Shown here piece by piece: positions 5,491-11,151 of a DNA stretch of 64,000 nucleotides; positions within the stretch are counted from its first letter, which is position 1; each line of letters starts with the position of its first letter. The notes under the pieces were generated by a model. That model had not been told where the DNA came from. It worked only from the letters and a program-made list of their open reading frames with translations, and did not search any database. The DNA is from Candidatus Levyibacteriota bacterium. Lineage in GTDB: Bacteria; Patescibacteriota; Microgenomatia; Levybacterales; GWA1-39-11. Both the position numbers and the translations under genes were made by a program. The stretch is taken from NCBI GenBank assembly GCA_036788695.1, contig DAIQMY010000001.1:61860-125859 (forward strand), in the 5' to 3' direction.

Positions 5491-5832
5491 ATGAAGAAAA
5501 AGGAATTAAGCCCCAGAAAAACAAATATGACACTAAATAAACACTACGAAAAAGTATACGAGCTTGTAAGAAAGATTCCCAAAGGAAAAGTTACGACATA
5601 TGGAACACTCGGTAAAAAGTTGGAAATGTCACCACGGGTAGTAGGTCAAGCGCTTCACGCAAACCCCTATGAAGGAGAAGTTCCCTGTCATAGAGTGGTA
5701 AATAAAATGGGTCGTCTAGCACCTACCTTTGCGTTTGGAGGAAAAAACGCTCAAAAACGCTTATTGGAAACTGAGGGAGTACTCTTTAAGAATGACTATG
5801 TAGACATGTCAAAGTCATATATAACGGCGTAA
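5491..5832 (+). CDS. MGMT-family protein (O6-alkylguanine-DNA alkyltransferase DNA-binding/active-site domain only)
   Basis: Canonical PCHRVV active-site motif. Helix-turn-helix region begins at YEKVYELVRKIPKGKVTTYGTLG. No N-terminal Ogt domain. An alternative start is MTLNK at 5527. Confidence 0.6.
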   Translation: MKKKELSPRKTNMTLNKHYEKVYELVRKIPKGKVTTYGTLGKKLEMSPRVVGQALHANPYEGEVPCHRVVNKMGRLAPTFAFGGKNAQKRLLETEGVLFKNDYVDMSKSYITA

Positions 5833-5834
5833 GG

Positions 5835-6377
5835 CTACTGCTGACTTTCTAATTTATAATTCCCAAACTTTGTACACCCGCCGCCTGTACCATCATAGTA
5901 ATTTGCTCCCCCCGCTTGAATTGATGGATCAGAAGCGTTCTCAAGTCGAGTTACAAGGATATATGACTGTCCGTCTGCAGTATAGTATGCGTATCCTCGT
6001 GTAGTCGTATCTCCTGGAGTGCATGCCCCACCCTGGTCAGTAAAAGAAGGATCCTGGCTCATTGCCTGAATATATGTGGATGCATTTGGTCCAAACATAG
6101 ATGATGCGGGATCTATGTTCCAACAATTCCAGCTTGTCGCACTAAAACATGTTCCGCTTGCATATACATCTGGATTTGGATATGCCCCGTTATCAGTGTA
6201 ATATTGTTCTAATGCATTTTGTACATCCCGTAACGTTGCCTTACGAGCAGCATCTCTTGATTTTTGAAGTTGGGCGACTGGATTTAGCACTACAATTCCA
6301 ACAGTCACAAGAATCCCCAAAACGGCAATAACGATTAAAAGTTCTATAAGCGTAAAGCCACTTGATTTCTTTCTCAC
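5835..6377 (-). CDS. Type IV pilin / pseudopilin (prepilin-type N-terminal cleavage-methylation domain)
   Basis: N-terminus MRKKSSGFTLIELLIVIAVLGILV is a class III signal: G|FTLIEL with Glu+5 and a hydrophobic helix. C-terminal region has paired Cys. Confidence 0.7.
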   Translation of the reverse strand: MRKKSSGFTLIELLIVIAVLGILVTVGIVVLNPVAQLQKSRDAARKATLRDVQNALEQYYTDNGAYPNPDVYASGTCFSATSWNCWNIDPASSMFGPNASTYIQAMSQDPSFTDQGGACTPGDTTTRGYAYYTADGQSYILVTRLENASDPSIQAGGANYYDGTGGGCTKFGNYKLESQQ

Positions 6378-6443
6378 ACTTTTAGTAAAGCATAGGGATG
6401 TTAGAGTGTCAATTTACGACAACTAAAAGAGGTACGGAGAACT

Positions 6444-6623
6444 GCAAAAAACCCGTTACTTTTTCTGTAGTTTAAAGATTTCTGCAATTTCAATCAGCGT
6501 TGTTGCGTCGTTTGGTTTTTTTAGGATCGCAGCAAAGCGAGAGCCGCAAAAAACCCGTTACTTTTTCTGTAGTTTAAAGATTTCTGCAATTTCAATCAGC
6601 GTTGTTGCGTCGTTTGGTTTTTT
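6444..6623. repeat. Perfect 78-bp tandem direct duplication (copies 6444..6521 and 6546..6623, 24-bp spacer) covering the last 15 codons plus stop of the DNA ligase gene
   Basis: Both copies read gcaaaaaacccgttactttttctgtagtttaaagatttctgcaatttcaatcagcgttgttgcgtcgtttggtttttt. Copy B is the real 3' end of the ligase ORF (…IAEIFKLQKK*). Copy A is a non-coding duplicate downstream. Confidence 0.8.
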
Positions 6624-8321
6624 ATCCTCCCTAAACCGCTCTAGCCTGGGAAATCGCAAGGCGTATCCTGGAACGTCCACATCATACGCTGATCCACTCT
6701 TTGAGGGCTTTAATGTTCTTCCCGCTGTATGCACAGGGGACCGGGTCAGTTCATCTGCTTTAATTTCTACTACAATCTCCGGGTTTACCCACACATCTGG
6801 CTCCAACCATTTATCTACTTCGTATAGTACTGGTTTTATTTTTGATTTTAATTTATCTCCTCGCTTCGCAAGTTCTCTCCACTCATCATCAGTAAGTCCA
6901 GTCCCTACCTTTGCAATAGTTAAGAACTTATCCTGTTTTGAGTCATAAATACCTATAAGAAACGCGCCAATTCCAAAACTAGTCCTCTTGCCACGTCCAT
7001 AGTAGTAACCCATAACTACACAGTCCACTGTATCGTCTAATTTTGACTGATATGATCTTTTCAGCTTTATCCAATTCCATCCTCTTGCCCCTGCTTGATA
7101 TGTGCCGTCAAGCTTCTTGGCTAATATCCCCTCAAGACCTCTAGAAATTGCATCATCAAAAAAGTTTTCTATTTCCTTTCCATCATTTAATACTTTCTCT
7201 TCAGCAGGATACAAAACACTTCCGTCTTTGATCATCTTGTTCAGCACTTTTCGTCTTTCTATGTAATGCTTGGGAATTAAATTCTCACCATCTACATATA
7301 ACGCGTCAAAAACCATGTATTTTAAGGGAATTTTGCGTGCCATCTCTTCTATGTCATATTTTCTTTTTCTCTGAGATGTTAACTGGAATGGAAGATATTC
7401 GTTTGTGTTAGGGTTATATGCTATTGCTTCCCCCTCAAATATAGCCTCTTTTGCCTTCATTTGCGATTTAATTCCTGCCTCAACATCAGGATACATAAAT
7501 GTTACTTCCTCTAAATTCCGCGTATACAATTTGACATTTTTCCCGTCCCAATGCGCTTGAAGCCTAAAACCATCAAACTTTTCCTCTACGGCACATTCAC
7601 CGATCTTATCAATTATTTCTTTTCCTGAACTTAATCTTTCTGCGCGAGCCATAAGTATAGGTGTTCCAACTGCAGGCTTCACCTTTCCAACGCCTTTGAT
7701 TCCATGCTCCTTGAGCATTTTGCCTATAACTCCCAGGTCTGGTCGTATGTTGTATGCCCTCTCTATTTCTTTTCTATAACTTTTGTTTCCTGCTAACATC
7801 CAGGACAAAGAATCTAAAACAGTCATATCAGAAAATCCTAAGCGTAACTTTCCAACAGGAATTCTAGCCACAAATCTTACGGATAATGGGTCTAAATCTT
7901 TAAATACATCTGAAAGCAATCCTATCTTCTTTTCAACTGAACCTGCACCATTTGTTTTCGTAATTTGTTCAAGAGCTGAAAAAACGTGTGCTATTGATGG
8001 ATCTTTGACTGAGTGTTTCTTACCCAAACTTAATTTTTCAGCCAAATCTCCTACATCTCCAATTTTTTTAAATTCAGCAGTAACATTCTTATCATCCTCC
8101 CCATATGCTAGGGCAACTGACCGCAGGATCATTTTGTCTGCCATCCCAAATTCGAGAGGAACATAGAGGGGTGCTACTCTTCCCTGGAGCAGATACATAA
8201 CGTGATCCATGTCTTCTACGGGAACTTTTTCAAAAAGCTCGGCTAAAATAAGCACCATTTCATTACGGGAAGTTATATTTTCTAATTTTTGAAGATAAAC
8301 TGAAAGGTCCGCAAATTTCAT
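6558..8321 (-). CDS. lig: ATP-dependent DNA ligase (archaeal/eukaryotic LigB-type, ~587 aa)
   Basis: Adenylation motif I EEKFDGFR (KxDG). N-terminal DNA-binding domain, then nucleotidyltransferase and OB domains. The size fits three-domain ATP-dependent ligases. Confidence 0.85.
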   Translation of the reverse strand: MKFADLSVYLQKLENITSRNEMVLILAELFEKVPVEDMDHVMYLLQGRVAPLYVPLEFGMADKMILRSVALAYGEDDKNVTAEFKKIGDVGDLAEKLSLGKKHSVKDPSIAHVFSALEQITKTNGAGSVEKKIGLLSDVFKDLDPLSVRFVARIPVGKLRLGFSDMTVLDSLSWMLAGNKSYRKEIERAYNIRPDLGVIGKMLKEHGIKGVGKVKPAVGTPILMARAERLSSGKEIIDKIGECAVEEKFDGFRLQAHWDGKNVKLYTRNLEEVTFMYPDVEAGIKSQMKAKEAIFEGEAIAYNPNTNEYLPFQLTSQRKRKYDIEEMARKIPLKYMVFDALYVDGENLIPKHYIERRKVLNKMIKDGSVLYPAEEKVLNDGKEIENFFDDAISRGLEGILAKKLDGTYQAGARGWNWIKLKRSYQSKLDDTVDCVVMGYYYGRGKRTSFGIGAFLIGIYDSKQDKFLTIAKVGTGLTDDEWRELAKRGDKLKSKIKPVLYEVDKWLEPDVWVNPEIVVEIKADELTRSPVHTAGRTLKPSKSGSAYDVDVPGYALRFPRLERFREDKKPNDATTLIEIAEIFKLQKK

Positions 8322-8746
8322 TGGGATTTTGATGGATTTAACATTTTTCTATAGTCTTGCACCATTTCTTGTAAATTTGTCGGCGTGTAAGGCTTTGGCA
8401 TTATACTAACTTTTAACTCTTGCATCTCGTTCTCTAAATCTTTAGTTTCGAGTGAATTCCCGCTTGCAAGAGTAATTGGCATTTTCTCATGTTGAACGCG
8501 AACCTGACGGATTAAATCAATCCCATTTACGCCTGGCATATCCCTATCTGTCATAAGAGCGTTAATAGATGGATCTTCTTGTAATTTTTCTAATGCCTCT
8601 TGTCCATTAGATACAAAGTCTACGTGAACTTGAAGTCGAGTTTTAAGCGCCATTTGTAGCAAAGCCTGAAGCAATTTATCATCTTCTGCTACTAGTAAAT
8701 GTAGCAGCACTTCCTGTTCTTGTTCATTTGTGGGTTGTCCTTCCAT
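8318..8746 (-). CDS. Stand-alone response-regulator receiver (CheY-like REC) domain protein
   Basis: LLVAEDD acidic pocket. Phospho-acceptor Asp in MTDRDMPGVNGIDL. Conserved Lys near MPKPY. There is no output domain. It overlaps the ligase start by 4 nt. Confidence 0.65.
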   Translation of the reverse strand: MEGQPTNEQEQEVLLHLLVAEDDKLLQALLQMALKTRLQVHVDFVSNGQEALEKLQEDPSINALMTDRDMPGVNGIDLIRQVRVQHEKMPITLASGNSLETKDLENEMQELKVSIMPKPYTPTNLQEMVQDYRKMLNPSKSQ

Positions 8747-8748
8747 AG

Positions 8749-9780
8749 TTACTTCATTACGTATTTTACACCTTTTGTAACTCCTTTTTTGGCTAAAATT
8801 CCTTTTTTCACTAAATCCTGCACTTCGCGCAGTACCGTATCCTCTGAAACCATAGAAAAAAGCGTTGCATACATTTTGTTCTCAATATATCCATTTGCTT
8901 TTATGTATTCAACTATTTTTAGTTGCCTATCTGATAGCATTACTGGACCACCTAGTTTTTTTCGAAGCGTTGCGTCAGTTGAAATCCCTTCCACTTTCGT
9001 TTTTATTTTTGAAAGCTCAAGAGCTAAACACTCTGTAAAATAGGTAAGCCACAAGGTCTGATCTCCCTTTTCTTTTTCAACGCTTTGGAGAGCACTATAG
9101 TACTCCTGAGCATTCCTGTCAAAATGCTCCTCAAGAGAAAAGAATTGTCTTGTATCATACCCCTCCTGAAACAAAACAAGCGTAGAAAGCGCACGCCCCA
9201 CTCTTCCATTTCCGTCAAGAAATGGATGGATTCTTACAAATTCATAGTGAACTACTCCCGCCTTTAGTACTGGATGCATCTCATGCTCTTCTTCTATAAA
9301 CTGTATGAGTTCTTTTACCTGCCATGGAACTTCAATTGTTTTAGGAGGCCGAAAAGAAACTTCTCCGGTAATTGAATTTTTAATAACCACATCACGATCT
9401 CTATAATCCCCCATCTTATCCATTGGTAAAATGTTTGCCACCACTATTTTATGTAATTGTTTTATAACATCTTCATCAATTCTCTTACCCATAGTTCTAC
9501 CCATGTACTCCACTACTCGTCTGTAATTTATAACCTCCTGAACATCTCTGTTTCTTGCTACAATATTTTCTCCATCTAAAATCTTTTGAACCTGTACTAA
9601 AGACAACTCATTCCCCTCTATGTGCGTTCCATAATGAACAGTTCTTACAACAGCCTCATCTTGGAATTTCTTTTCCCAATATGGTAATAGTGGCGCGTTT
9701 TCTATAACTTCACGAGCCGCCTCAATACTACCTATATTTTTTAAAATGGAGTTAGTTATGGAAAAAGTGGGTAAATACAT
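8749..9780 (-). CDS. Fic-family protein (AMPylase/adenylyltransferase) with Fic_N-like N-terminus and C-terminal winged-helix
   Basis: Canonical Fic motif HPFLDGNGRVGR (HxFx[D/E]GNGRxxR). C-terminal wHTH-like segment DRQLKIVEYIKANGYIENKMYATL. Confidence 0.85.
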   Translation of the reverse strand: MYLPTFSITNSILKNIGSIEAAREVIENAPLLPYWEKKFQDEAVVRTVHYGTHIEGNELSLVQVQKILDGENIVARNRDVQEVINYRRVVEYMGRTMGKRIDEDVIKQLHKIVVANILPMDKMGDYRDRDVVIKNSITGEVSFRPPKTIEVPWQVKELIQFIEEEHEMHPVLKAGVVHYEFVRIHPFLDGNGRVGRALSTLVLFQEGYDTRQFFSLEEHFDRNAQEYYSALQSVEKEKGDQTLWLTYFTECLALELSKIKTKVEGISTDATLRKKLGGPVMLSDRQLKIVEYIKANGYIENKMYATLFSMVSEDTVLREVQDLVKKGILAKKGVTKGVKYVMK

Positions 9781-9829
9781 GTATAAAGCTTTTTTGCCTT
9801 TTGAATTGGCTTATTGTATTATACAATAC

Positions 9830-10108
9830 ATGGCTGAAAAGAAAGAAACCCCAAAACAAAAACGTCTTCATATTGAATTGGTTCGACAGCTTCTAACGCT
9901 TGCCACAGCCGGATTCGGATTAGTAGCAGCGCTTGCATGGAATTCACTCATTCAAGAAGCAGTAAATACATATATCAAGCCGTATTTCCCCAATGGAAGT
10001 CTTGTGTCCCTTTTGGTTTACGCGCTTATTGTAACCTCTCTTGCAGTTTTCATAACATACCAACTTTCAAAAATTCTACAAAGACTCGACAATAAGTCAG
10101 GCAAATGA
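9830..10108 (+). CDS. Small two-helix membrane protein (hypothetical)
   Basis: The ORF is open from 9746, but that start overlaps the Fic start. ATG at 9830 (MAEKKETPKQK...) gives a 92-aa protein with two hydrophobic helices. Its stop overlaps the recF start (ATGA). Confidence 0.35.
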   Translation: MAEKKETPKQKRLHIELVRQLLTLATAGFGLVAALAWNSLIQEAVNTYIKPYFPNGSLVSLLVYALIVTSLAVFITYQLSKILQRLDNKSGK

Positions 10109-11151
10109 TCGTTACAAAAATAACTCTCAAGCAGTTTCGAAGCCATCACAAAAAAACGTTTGAATTTGGCCCCACAACCATTATTATTGGGAAAAACACT
10201 GCGGGAAAATCCAACATTTTAGAGGCGCTCTATGTTCTGTCCCATGGAACTTCTTTTAGGGCAGCACGTGACGCAGATATGATAGAAAATGGCTATGAAT
10301 TTGCCAGAATTGAGGGACAGGTGAAAGACACTACTGATTCAACAAATCTTGCAACTATTTTAGCACTTCAAAACAACTATCTTTCAAAAAAATATCTGGT
10401 AAATGATGTGCCCCGTGCTTTAAGAACTTTTTCAGATTATCTGTATACCGTCCTTTTTACACCACAAGATATTGAAATTGTAACTGCCTCTCCTGGGGGG
10501 CGAAGACGATATATAGATTCAATTCTTTCCAAGTCACACAAAGAATATAGGGTAGCTTTCAGCCGCTATGAAAAAGCGCTACGACAAAGAAACCGTATGC
10601 TTTCAGACATGAAAAATGGCCGTAAAACATACCAACAAGGAGATTTTGAGTTCTGGGAAAAACTCTTAATTGAACATGGTACAACCATTCATGAGTTTAG
10701 ACGTGGGTTTGTGGAATATGTAAACGGCTCACAGAAGCAGATATTTGATTTTGAAATGCATTATGACCACAGTATTATCTCAATTGAACGGCTTTTTAAG
10801 TATCATTTTGAAGAACGTGCAGCAGGCGTGACACTGGTTGGGCCACAGCGGGATGATTTTCAATTTTTTTATGCAAATACTAAACAAGAAGTAAAAGAAT
10901 ACGGGTCACGTGGTGAACAACGGCTTACGGTGTTGCAACTTAAACTACTTGAGATTGAATATTTAAAAGCCAGAACAGGGGCAATTCCAGTGTTACTACT
11001 AGATGACATATTTTCAGAGTTAGATAATGAAAACATAGATAAGATCTATCACTTTTTAGAGGGCCAGCAGACTATAATTACCACAACCCACAAAGAATTT
11101 GTGCCTGCAAAAATATTAAAACAAGGGGATTTGAAAATTATTGAGTTATAA
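10105..11151 (+). CDS. recF: DNA replication/repair protein RecF
   Basis: Walker A GKNTAGKSN near the N-terminus. C-terminal LLLDDIFSELD Walker B / D-loop. ~348 aa SMC-like ABC ATPase typical of RecF. Confidence 0.8.
   Translation: MIVTKITLKQFRSHHKKTFEFGPTTIIIGKNTAGKSNILEALYVLSHGTSFRAARDADMIENGYEFARIEGQVKDTTDSTNLATILALQNNYLSKKYLVNDVPRALRTFSDYLYTVLFTPQDIEIVTASPGGRRRYIDSILSKSHKEYRVAFSRYEKALRQRNRMLSDMKNGRKTYQQGDFEFWEKLLIEHGTTIHEFRRGFVEYVNGSQKQIFDFEMHYDHSIISIERLFKYHFEERAAGVTLVGPQRDDFQFFYANTKQEVKEYGSRGEQRLTVLQLKLLEIEYLKARTGAIPVLLLDDIFSELDNENIDKIYHFLEGQQTIITTTHKEFVPAKILKQGDLKIIEL

What the first reader, a model, noticed from the sequence alone, without database searches (positions are those of the whole stretch)
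6558..9780. Fic AMPylase - orphan receiver - ATP-dependent DNA ligase encoded as one tightly coupled operon next to recF
Three minus-strand genes are packed without intergenic space: Fic stop to receiver start has a 2-nt gap, and the receiver stop overlaps the ligase start by 4 nt. Co-transcription and translational coupling are therefore likely. The Fic protein carries an intact catalytic motif HPFLDGNGRVGR, so it is probably an active nucleotidyl (AMP) transferase. The third gene is the cell's ATP-dependent DNA ligase, whose own catalytic cycle goes through a lysine-AMP intermediate (KFDG motif present). Known bacterial Fic toxins (FicT class) AMPylate the DNA-topology enzymes GyrB and ParE. 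Hard-wiring a Fic enzyme and a phospho-receiver input module to the replicative/repair ligase suggests an undescribed signal-controlled post-translational switch on DNA joining. recF follows immediately upstream on the opposite strand, and EndoQ/MGMT lie just downstream, so the whole ~10 kb is DNA-repair flavoured. I know of no described Fic-REC-ligase module.
Basis: partly seen in the sequence, partly recalled or inferred. Interest (0 to 1): 0.6.

Follow-up and report, generated by a model that had tools for sequence, protein, structure and literature searches.

The report
Conserved Fic–DNA ligase operon in Microgenomates
A Fic-type AMP-transferase gene sits directly in front of the DNA ligase gene in nearly all relatives of this tiny uncultured bacterium, even where the ligase has been replaced by an unrelated type, which points to an undescribed link between Fic enzymes and DNA joining; the receiver gene between them is only a strain-specific insert.

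Summary
Fic (8749-9780), a receiver (8318-8746) and an ATP-dependent DNA ligase (6558-8321) lie on the minus strand, with a 2-nt gap and a 4-nt ATGA overlap. Tight packing is common in this Levybacteria (CPR) genome: 11 of 30 same-strand gene pairs have gaps of 4 nt or less. The real evidence is comparative.

- **Ligase-anchored search:** Fic lies directly upstream, on the same strand, in 48 Patescibacteria loci spanning at least four different syntenic contexts.
- **Fic-anchored search:** 67 of 71 informative metagenome loci have a ligase downstream. 45 are ATP-dependent. 22 are NAD-dependent LigA, swapped in at the same position.
- **Fic conservation:** All orthologs keep the catalytic motif, the FICD-like inhibitory glutamate and a C-terminal winged helix. 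Fic evolves as slowly as the ligase.
- **Receiver:** It is not conserved. It occupies a variable cassette slot, and a relative with 96% identical Fic carries an unrelated gene there.

Best reading: a DNA-binding, autoinhibited SoFic/CbFic2-like (de)AMPylase is functionally coupled to DNA ligase or to ligation intermediates. The target and the chemical direction are inferred, not shown. The Fic-REC-ligase module is not. I found no prior description.

The parts
8749..9780 (-). Class II Fic enzyme with a C-terminal winged helix (343 aa); first gene of the operon
   Evidence: Pfam Fic 1.3e-20. PADLOC SoFic model 9.5e-56. AF2 model pLDDT 83. Foldseek matches 4RGL, SoFic, CbFic2 and FICD. Conserved upstream of a ligase gene in more than 110 loci.
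9610..9630 (-). Inhibitory-helix motif G-T-H-I-E-G-N (aa 51-57); E55 aligns with FICD E234
   Evidence: phmmer alignment to FICD. G-T-[HR]-[IVL]-E-G-N is kept in all 48 ligase-linked orthologs of the genome set.
9193..9228 (-). Fic catalytic motif HPFLDGNGRVGR (aa 185-196)
   Evidence: Read directly. HP[FY]x[DE]GNGRxxR is kept in all 48 orthologs.
8752..8943 (-). C-terminal winged helix-turn-helix domain of Fic (about aa 280-343)
   Evidence: AF2 secondary structure H284-296, H301-307, H313-325, E329-332, E339-342. Full-length Foldseek matches to SoFic, CbFic2 and 4RGL, which carry this domain. Invariant R285, Q286, S312, D314, T315, R318, K331, G333, T335, K336.
8318..8746 (-). Single-domain response-regulator receiver; strain-specific cassette in the variable slot between Fic and ligase
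   Evidence: Pfam Response_reg 1.9e-16. Phospho-acceptor D67 (8546-8548), D22/D23, S95 and K117 are present. Replaced by an unrelated 187-aa gene in L007/L008, with the break points at its own start and stop. No homologue beyond 99-100% copies.
6558..8321 (-). Three-domain ATP-dependent DNA ligase (archaeal/Lig1 type); last gene of the operon
   Evidence: Pfam A_N, A_M and A_C. TIGR00574 at 420.7 bits, above the 217.8 cut-off. KFDG at K248 (7569-7580).
6437..6623 (-). Tandem duplication (period 102 nt) of the last ~21 ligase codons, the stop codon and the following ~20 nt
   Evidence: the repeat finder found two 85-nt copies at 98% identity. There are 3 copies in another strain (L002) and 2-3 copies of a 107-nt period in the sister species L007.
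9794..10108 (+). DUF5654 membrane-protein gene, divergent from Fic with only 13 nt between the two start codons, and overlapping the recF start by 4 nt
   Evidence: Pfam DUF5654 9e-19. Called as 104 aa in L001. Divergent neighbour of Fic in many Microgenomates loci.
10105..11151 (+). recF; a frequent but not invariant neighbour
   Evidence: TIGR00611 at 265 bits, above the 172 cut-off. Present in 32 ligase-anchored loci, in varying position and orientation.
9813..9840 (-). Candidate sigma-70-like promoter for the Fic operon, inside the DUF5654 coding region
   Evidence: Consensus scan, 9 of 12 matches. This is weak: 14 such sites were found in the region against 10.6 expected. No terminator-like site lies between the three genes.

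Best explanation
The conserved unit is a two-gene core operon, Fic followed by DNA ligase. It is characteristic of the Microgenomates branch of the Candidate Phyla Radiation.

The Fic protein is a class II enzyme of the SoFic/CbFic2/FICD kind. It has an N-terminal inhibitory helix carrying an invariant glutamate, an intact HPFx[DE]GNGRxxR active site and a C-terminal winged helix that probably binds DNA.

I propose that it is recruited to DNA and reversibly adds or removes AMP on the co-expressed ligase. Alternatively it may act on the AMP-bearing ligation intermediates, ligase-AMP and 5'-adenylated DNA. Either way it would tune or proof-read nick sealing.

The gene between Fic and ligase is an exchangeable cassette. 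In this strain it is a phosphorylatable single-domain receiver that is translationally coupled to the ligase. At most this adds a strain-specific input.

- **Shown:** gene order, co-orientation and start/stop overlaps; conservation; motif integrity; fold; ligase swap in situ; cassette swap.
- **Inferred:** co-transcription, DNA binding, the identity of the substrate and the direction of the chemistry.
For: 1. **Ligase-anchored scan** of GTDB species representatives with tblastn and clustering. Fic is the commonest neighbour of the ligase (48 loci, against 32 for recF and 22 for the next family). It is always directly upstream on the same strand. The surrounding contexts differ in at least four ways (Levy-, Roizman-, Gottesman- and other types) and both outer flanks vary.
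2. **Fic-anchored metagenome scan**. Of 71 loci with usable downstream sequence, 45 have the ATP-dependent ligase and 22 have NAD-dependent LigA (Pfam PF01653 + OB + HhH + BRCT). Four have none, and two of those four have only about 1.5 kb of flank.
3. **In-situ displacement**. L134 reads PilC-PilB-PilB-HolB-Fic-ATP-ligase. L101, L113 and L122 read PilC-PilB-PilB-HolB-Fic-LigA. In L120 the Fic-LigA pair is inverted as a block. LigA-linked Fic proteins form one clade nested among ATP-ligase-linked ones.
4. **Direct coupling.** ATGA start/stop overlap occurs directly between Fic and ligase in L043, L088, L142 and L147.
5. **Motif integrity.** The catalytic motif and the inhibitory Glu motif are kept in all 48 genome-set orthologs. 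E55 aligns with FICD E234.
6. **Evolutionary rate.** Fic evolves as slowly as the ligase (mean identity to the window 54.5% for both, n=86). It is more conserved than RecF in 48 of 48 loci and than the NAD(P)HX dehydratase in 32 of 35. This is core-gene behaviour.
7. **Fold.** It matches SoFic, 4RGL, CbFic2 and FICD. CbFic2 has the same architecture and is a bifunctional AMPylase/deAMPylase switched by DNA binding through its C-terminal HTH (PMC10628234).
Against: - No biochemical or structural evidence identifies the ligase as the substrate.
- No Fic-ligase fusion occurs among the 150 best cluster representatives; all are 105-385 aa.
- The link is confined to one clade. Relatives at 33-39% identity from other organisms sit beside unrelated genes.
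- The ligase swap is a single evolutionary event. The Fic-ligase gap is also an insertion hotspot, so LigA could have landed there by chance before the old ligase was lost.
- Known Fic deAMPylases act on Ser/Thr/Tyr-AMP. They are not known to act on Lys-AMP or on pyrophosphate-linked AppDNA.
- Genes in this genome are generally tightly packed.
Confidence: 0.5

Rival explanations
1. SoFic-type toxin/antitoxin or abortive-infection module. Fic would be a growth-arresting AMPylase. The variable downstream gene (REC here; family X, a 2-TM peptide or a methyltransferase elsewhere) would be its antidote or sensor. The ligase would be a neighbour, or the cellular target that is shut off on infection.
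For: - The PADLOC SoFic model matches at 9.5e-56 over nearly the full length.
- EcSofic is toxic and is neutralised by a 47-aa protein encoded just downstream. Its target is unknown (PMC12249575).
- The slot downstream of Fic is fast-evolving and swapped between close relatives.
- Mobile-element-like genes (Bro-N, EEP nuclease) are inserted there in some loci.
Against: - Defence genes are sporadic and fast-evolving. This Fic is present at the same position across a class-level clade, and it is as conserved as the ligase and more conserved than RecF.
- Many lineages have no gene at all between Fic and ligase, with gaps of -1 to 46 nt.
- There are no PADLOC hits for any slot protein.
- The score against the NCBIfam SoFic equivalog is 78.7 against a cut-off of 550.
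Confidence: 0.15
2. Fic (de)AMPylates some other DNA-associated protein, for example GyrB/ParE as FicT, NmFic and Fic-1 do, or a nucleoid protein as CbFic2 does with histone H3. It would merely be co-regulated with the ligase as part of a replication/repair regulon.
For: - Known chromosomal Fic enzymes target GyrB/ParE (established knowledge of FicT, NmFic and Fic-1).
- CbFic2 acts on a DNA-bound protein (PMC10628234).
- recF, EndoQ-like and MGMT-like genes are often nearby.
Against: Only the ligase is an invariant partner. recF, EndoQ and MGMT come and go. The partnership survives replacement of the ligase by a different ligase family, which is hard to explain by loose co-regulation alone.
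Confidence: 0.15
3. The winged-helix Fic protein is mainly a transcriptional regulator of its own operon. The Fic domain would serve as a nucleotide sensor or auto-AMPylation switch rather than modifying the ligase.
For: - A conserved C-terminal wHTH with invariant recognition-helix and wing residues.
- Its position as first gene of the operon.
- SoFic was originally deposited as a 'Fic domain containing transcriptional regulator' (3EQX title).
Against: - The full catalytic motif and the flap region are strictly conserved, which suggests catalysis on a substrate.
- The region upstream of Fic is only 13 nt long before the divergent DUF5654 gene. No operator was identified.
Confidence: 0.1
4. 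Neutral conserved synteny. The pair is an inherited gene order in small, slowly rearranging CPR genomes and has no functional meaning. LigA happened to insert into the hotspot next to Fic.
For: - The association is restricted to one clade.
- The slot is an insertion hotspot.
- There was only one ligase-swap event.
- Tight gene packing is the rule in this genome.
Against: - Both outer flanks are reshuffled many times while the Fic-to-ligase order and orientation hold in about 114 of 118 informative loci.
- The Fic-LigA block inverts as a unit (L120).
- Start/stop overlaps occur directly between Fic and ligase.
Confidence: 0.1

Closest known systems
SoFic / EcSofic (class II Fic with C-terminal domain; single-gene anti-phage system with downstream antitoxin AS1)
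   Same: Same architecture: inhibitory helix, Fic core and C-terminal winged helix. PADLOC SoFic model 9.5e-56. Foldseek 3EQX 4e-13. A small or variable gene lies directly downstream, as with AS1 (PMC12249575).
   Different: - Not an equivalog: NCBIfam score 78.7 against a cut-off of 550.
- About 19% identity in the structural alignment.
- Not in a defence island. It is vertically conserved, slowly evolving and fixed in front of the DNA ligase gene.
- The inhibitory motif has Gly instead of Ser/Thr at position -4.
Coxiella burnetii CbFic2 (PDB 8CIL)
   Same: Class II Fic plus C-terminal HTH; Foldseek 1e-12. Published as a bifunctional AMPylase/deAMPylase whose activity is switched by DNA binding (PMC10628234). 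This is the best mechanistic template.
   Different: CbFic2 is a secreted effector acting on host histone H3. Here the protein is a housekeeping-like gene of a free-living or episymbiotic CPR bacterium with a ligase partner. No activity data exist.
FICD/HYPE and Enterococcus EfFic (bifunctional Fic enzymes)
   Same: The Fic core superposes on FICD at 2.3-3 A over about 255 residues. E55 aligns with FICD E234, the residue that blocks AMPylation and catalyses deAMPylation (role of E234 from established literature).
   Different: No TPR or transmembrane parts. It has a wHTH instead. The substrate, BiP in FICD, is unrelated.
FicT/VbhT, NmFic and Fic-1 (Fic toxins that AMPylate GyrB/ParE)
   Same: Fic enzymes acting on ATP-using enzymes of DNA metabolism.
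   Different: Those are class I (inhibitory Glu on a separate antitoxin) or class III (C-terminal helix). This one is class II, and no antitoxin with an S/TxxxE(G/N) helix is encoded nearby. VbhT NCBIfam match is only E 0.0035.
Aprataxin (HIT-family 5'-AMP-DNA deadenylase of eukaryotes)
   Same: Only a possible functional analogy: an AMP-handling enzyme that cleans up after DNA ligase. Both ATP- and NAD-dependent ligases generate the same ligase-AMP and AppDNA intermediates. That would explain why the Fic partner tolerates a change of ligase family.
   Different: Unrelated fold and chemistry. No Fic enzyme is known to hydrolyse AppDNA or Lys-AMP. This is entirely hypothetical.

Membership tests
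Fic/Fido superfamily | Core motif HxFx(D/E)GNGRxxR on the Fic fold | tested here: met
   HPFLDGNGRVGR at aa 185-196. Pfam PF02661 at 74.5 bits against a cut-off of 24. Foldseek probability 1.00 to many Fic structures.
Class II Fic (cis inhibitory helix N-terminal to the core) | Inhibitory helix with the glutamate of (S/T)xxxE(G/N), preceding the Fic core in the same polypeptide | tested here: met
   H-I-E55-G-N on helix 32-53/54-57 of the model. It aligns with FICD ...AIE234GN. E-G-N is invariant in 48 orthologs.
Class II Fic (cis inhibitory helix N-terminal to the core) | Ser/Thr at position -4 of the inhibitory motif | tested here: not met
   Position -4 is an invariant Gly (G51), and Thr sits at -3: G-T-H-I-E-G-N. 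This is a subfamily-specific deviation of unknown consequence.
SoFic-type proteins (Fic + C-terminal wHTH) | Two-domain architecture with a C-terminal winged helix | tested here: met
   AF2 model. Full-length Foldseek matches to 3EQX, 8CIL and 4RGL. PADLOC SoFic 9.5e-56, aa 39-332.
SoFic equivalog (NCBIfam NF046030) | Score at or above the curated cut-off | tested here: not met
   78.7 bits against a cut-off of 550.
SoFic anti-phage defence system | Sporadic, defence-island location; protection against phage; toxicity | tested here: not met
   The genomic criterion is not met. The gene has a fixed position in front of the ligase across a class-level clade and a slow evolutionary rate. Phage protection and toxicity cannot be tested with these tools.
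SoFic-AS1 toxin-antitoxin pair | Small neutralising protein encoded directly downstream | tested here: inconclusive
   A downstream slot gene exists in many loci: REC, family X, or a 60-67-aa 2-TM protein. It is absent in many others.
Class I FicTA toxins (FicT/VbhT) | Inhibitory glutamate supplied by a separate antitoxin | tested here: not met
   The glutamate is in cis. VbhT model E 0.0035, 16.5 bits against a cut-off of 800.
Response-regulator receiver domain | Acidic pair, phospho-acceptor Asp, Ser/Thr and Lys of the CheY fold | tested here: met
   D22/D23, D67 (in TDRDMPG), S95 and K117-P118 read from the sequence. Pfam model positions 2-111 of 111 covered.
Two-component system | Cognate histidine kinase encoded nearby | tested here: not met
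   No H-box match and no second REC in the 64-kb window. The rest of the genome was not available.
ATP-dependent DNA ligase (three-domain Lig1/archaeal type) | DNA-binding, nucleotidyltransferase (KxDG) and OB domains | tested here: met
   PF04675, PF01068 and PF04679. TIGR00574 at 420.7 bits against 217.8. K248-F-D-G.
   REC occupies the slot only in this species, L014, L019 and L051. It is replaced in L007/L008 and has no wider homologues. Fic plus ligase alone is conserved.

The most novel reading that the evidence does not exclude
This Fic subfamily is a dedicated partner enzyme of the cell's DNA ligase. One possibility is a reversible AMPylation switch on the ligase itself. The other is a Glu-dependent hydrolase that removes AMP from stalled ligase-AMP or from 5'-adenylated DNA, making it a bacterial, Fic-based counterpart of aprataxin. 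The shared AMP intermediates of ATP- and NAD-dependent ligases would explain why the partnership survived a change of ligase family. It would also nominate DNA ligase or ligation intermediates as the still-unknown target of SoFic-type defence proteins.
Probability: 0.2. Interest if true: 0.85.

Novelty: new variant of a known kind. Interest (0 to 1): 0.66.

Why it matters
No post-translational regulator or dedicated AMP-handling partner of a bacterial DNA ligase is known. The cellular target of SoFic-type Fic enzymes is explicitly stated to be unknown (PMC12249575).

A Fic gene that stays glued to the ligase gene across a whole CPR class, and through a swap of ligase family, gives a concrete, testable candidate for both questions. 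Two purified proteins and adenylated DNA would settle it.

It also shows that the Fic-ligase gap is a polymorphic cassette site (receiver, methyltransferase, unknown family X, 2-TM peptide). That may reveal how such an enzyme is modulated.

Tried and rejected
1. **Tight spacing as evidence of coupling: rejected as weak.** 37% of same-strand pairs in the window are equally tight.
2. **REC as a conserved component: rejected**.
3. **The slot proteins of other Levybacteria as diverged receivers: rejected.** hhalign links f30, f37, f38, L036 and L042 to each other (probability 46-95%) but not to REC or to the methyltransferase. Pfam, PHROGs and PADLOC give nothing for them.
4. **Rosetta-stone Fic-ligase fusions: none** among the 150 best representatives.
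5. **Histidine kinase, second receiver or LigA in the window: none**.
6. **Archaeal, Dependentiae and actinobacterial ligase loci: no Fic neighbour**.
7. **More distant Fic relatives (33-39% identity) from other organisms: not ligase-linked**. The link is therefore not a general property of SoFic-like proteins.
8. **Literature.** Searches for Fic together with DNA ligase, Microgenomates or CPR gave nothing relevant.
9. **Promoter/terminator scan: uninformative.** Hits were at background level.
10. **Complex prediction of Fic with ligase: not possible** with the monomer-only structure tool.

Full report
**What is in the window**

Three minus-strand genes lie at the stated coordinates:
- Fic at 8749-9780 (343 aa).
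- A single-domain receiver at 8318-8746 (142 aa).
- A three-domain ATP-dependent DNA ligase at 6558-8321 (587 aa).

There are 2 nt between the Fic stop and the receiver start. The receiver stop and the ligase start share a 4-nt ATGA overlap.

Pfam and NCBIfam confirm all three.

Two details of the finding need correcting:
- A DUF5654 membrane-protein gene (9794-10108, +) separates Fic from recF. Its start is only 13 nt from the Fic start.
- A type IV pilin gene lies between the ligase and the MGMT-like and EndoQ-like genes.

The same locus occurs in several assemblies of one species of Candidatus Levybacteria, including GCA_964419005.1. The organism therefore belongs to the Microgenomates branch of the Candidate Phyla Radiation.

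**Is the packing special?**

No. In a crude gene call of the window, 11 of 30 same-strand neighbour pairs have gaps of 4 nt or less. No terminator-like site lies between the genes, and promoter-like hits are at background level. Spacing is compatible with an operon but does not show a functional module.

**Neighbourhood anchored on the ligase**

A scan of one genome per GTDB species returned 80 ligase loci. tblastn and ORF clustering gave the following:
- Fic is the most frequent neighbour: 48 loci, against 32 for recF and 22 for the next family.
- It is always directly upstream on the same strand.
- It occurs in at least four different contexts (Levy-, Roizman-, Gottesman- and other Microgenomates types). 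In these, the genes upstream of Fic and downstream of the ligase differ.
- Among CPR-like loci with enough upstream sequence, only L046 and L048 lack it.
- Archaeal, Dependentiae, Coprothermobacterota and actinobacterial loci have no Fic.

Many record titles are generic or wrong ('uncultured Gammaproteobacteria'). Affiliation therefore rests on similarity to named Levy-, Roizman-, Shapiro- and Gottesmanbacteria.

**Neighbourhood anchored on Fic**

An alignment of diverse orthologs (A1) was used to scan JGI metagenomes. Of the 80 loci returned:
- 9 have too little downstream sequence to judge.
- 45 have the ATP-dependent ligase downstream.
- 22 have a roughly 650-aa gene that Pfam identifies as NAD-dependent LigA: adenylation domain, OB, HhH and BRCT.
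- 4 have no ligase. L112 and L156 have only about 1.5 kb of flank, and a near-identical relative of L156 has the ligase 2.2 kb away. L132 is a clear exception.

Most gaps are below 250 nt. In L043, L088, L142 and L147 the Fic stop and the ligase start overlap as ATGA.

**The ligase swap**

The LigA-linked Fic proteins form one clade nested among ATP-ligase-linked ones, with L134 as sister. They are labelled Shapiro- or Woesebacteria by their sources.
- L134 reads PilC-PilB-PilB-HolB-Fic-ATP-ligase-EndoQ.
- L101, L113 and L122 read PilC-PilB-PilB-HolB-Fic-LigA-Pth.
- In L120 the Fic-LigA pair is inverted as a block between Pth and HolB.

This is an in-situ non-orthologous displacement of the ligase with Fic retained in front of it. 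It is a single event. Because the Fic-ligase gap is an insertion hotspot, a chance landing cannot be excluded. Even so, the pair has stayed together throughout that clade.

**The Fic protein**

- All 48 genome-set orthologs keep HP[FY]x[DE]GNGRxxR and G-T-[HR]-[IVL]-E-G-N.
- phmmer against the PDB aligns E55 with FICD E234.
- The AF2 model (pLDDT 83) matches 4RGL, SoFic, CbFic2 and a Mycobacterium Fic over the full length. It matches FICD at 2.3-3 A over about 255 residues.

It is thus a class II Fic with a C-terminal winged helix. One deviation is an invariant Gly at the usual Ser/Thr position of the inhibitory motif.

It matches the PADLOC SoFic model (9.5e-56) but is far below the NCBIfam SoFic equivalog cut-off (78.7 against 550).

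It evolves like a core gene:
- Its mean identity to the window protein is 54.5%, the same as the ligase (n=86).
- It is more conserved than RecF in 48 of 48 loci.
- It is more conserved than the NAD(P)HX dehydratase in 32 of 35 loci.

The subfamily has 211 representative clusters at E of 1e-30 or better, and no ligase fusions among the best 150. A relative at 35% identity is still CarbK-Fic-ligase-Pth. Relatives at 33-39% identity from other kinds of organisms are not ligase-linked.

**The receiver and the slot**

The gene between Fic and ligase is variable:
- Most Levybacteria carry a 160-200-aa protein of one fast-evolving family, family X. hhalign probabilities between its sub-groups are 46-95%, and there are no Pfam, PHROG or PADLOC hits.
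- L009 and L050 carry a SAM-methyltransferase-like gene.
- L012, L015 and L023 carry nothing.
- Many non-Levy lineages carry a conserved 60-67-aa two-transmembrane protein.
- Others have Fic abutting the ligase.
- Some have mobile-element-like inserts, such as Bro-N or an EEP nuclease.

A receiver occupies the slot only in this species, L014, L019 and the distant L051. All four have intact phospho-acceptor residues.

Against the closest relatives L007 and L008 (Fic 95-96% and ligase 88-94% identical), the DNA is alignable through the Fic stop plus 'CTATGGA'. It is alignable again from the 'AATGA' at the ligase start. Everything between is unrelated. This is a precise cassette exchange.

The window's receiver has no homologue other than 99-100% copies in a word-indexed search of 5.8 billion proteins. 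No kinase or second receiver is in the window.

**Mechanism**

What is shown:
- A conserved, co-oriented and often overlapping Fic-ligase pair.
- An intact active site with an inhibitory and potentially hydrolytic glutamate.
- A conserved winged helix.
- Tolerance of a change of ligase family.

Published work on proteins of the same architecture is relevant:
- CbFic2 is an AMPylase/deAMPylase switched by DNA binding through its HTH (PMC10628234).
- EcSofic is a toxic AMPylase with an unknown target and a small downstream antidote (PMC12249575).

My best inference, with confidence about 0.5, is a DNA-bound (de)AMPylase acting on the ligase or on the AMP intermediates common to both ligase families. 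In this strain the receiver is an optional input.

The rivals are:
- A SoFic-like toxin/defence module parked at the ligase.
- A different DNA-associated target.
- A mainly transcriptional role.
- Neutral synteny.

None is excluded. Core-gene behaviour argues against the first. The reshuffled flanks and the block inversion argue against the last.

**Novelty and verdict**

Full-text searches found no paper linking Fic enzymes to DNA ligase or describing this operon. The library covers open-access papers only.

The components are known kinds. The conserved partnership is new and directly testable. The three-part 'Fic-REC-ligase' module and the claim of an active AMPylase are not.

Noticed in passing
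window 6437-6623 (also L002:13158-13463, L007:7699-7957): The last ~21 codons of the ligase gene, its stop codon and ~20 following bases are tandemly duplicated with a period of 102 nt. Copy number differs between strains: 2 here, 3 in GCA_964419005.1. The sister species has 2-3 copies of a 107-nt period. This explains why tblastn ligase matches overrun the stop codon.
   Followed up: partly
L033:5797-5997, L052:5806-5991, L087:6074-6265 and about 25 other loci: A conserved 60-67-aa protein with two predicted transmembrane helices (consensus ..DPQFLYMILvLPtLFGLTLvGEGLNKvLK.E.qGW.S..FG..F) fills the ~190-250-nt Fic-ligase gap in many non-Levy Microgenomates. It has no Pfam hit and is absent from the window. 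It may be an analogue of the small AS1 antidote of EcSofic.
   Followed up: partly
L007:5441-6004, L010:5492-6004, L011:5491-5997, L042:5477-6001 and others: Most Levybacteria carry, in place of the receiver, a 160-200-aa protein of a fast-evolving family ('family X') with no hit in Pfam, PHROGs or PADLOC. Its stop usually overlaps the ligase start (ATGA). L024 has two paralogues in tandem.
   Followed up: partly
window 9781-9793: Only 13 nt separate the divergent start codons of Fic and the DUF5654 gene. Each promoter must therefore lie inside the other gene's coding region. DUF5654 is a recurrent divergent neighbour of Fic in other Microgenomates.
   Followed up: no
window 5491-5832 (+) and 5835-6377 (-): The 'MGMT' is a 113-aa protein consisting only of the C-terminal DNA_binding_1 domain, with the PCHR active-site motif. 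The convergent gene next to it is a type IV pilin with a weak match to the ComP DNA-uptake-sequence receptor pilin (7e-5, below the cut-off).
   Followed up: no
L113:6117-7306, L148:6141-6473, L031:4090-5861, L038:5262-5948: The Fic-ligase gap acts as an insertion hotspot. It holds DUF559/Vsr-like endonuclease-like ORFs, a Bro-N protein plus an unknown 307-aa protein, and an endonuclease/exonuclease/phosphatase-family gene in different lineages.
   Followed up: partly
L168:1286-3156, L169:627-3151: Two Fic relatives at 37-39% identity are not ligase-linked. Both sit next to a TP_methylase (RsmI-like) gene, one of them also next to RrnaAD (KsgA-like). This may be a second conserved context for a sister subfamily.
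   Followed up: no
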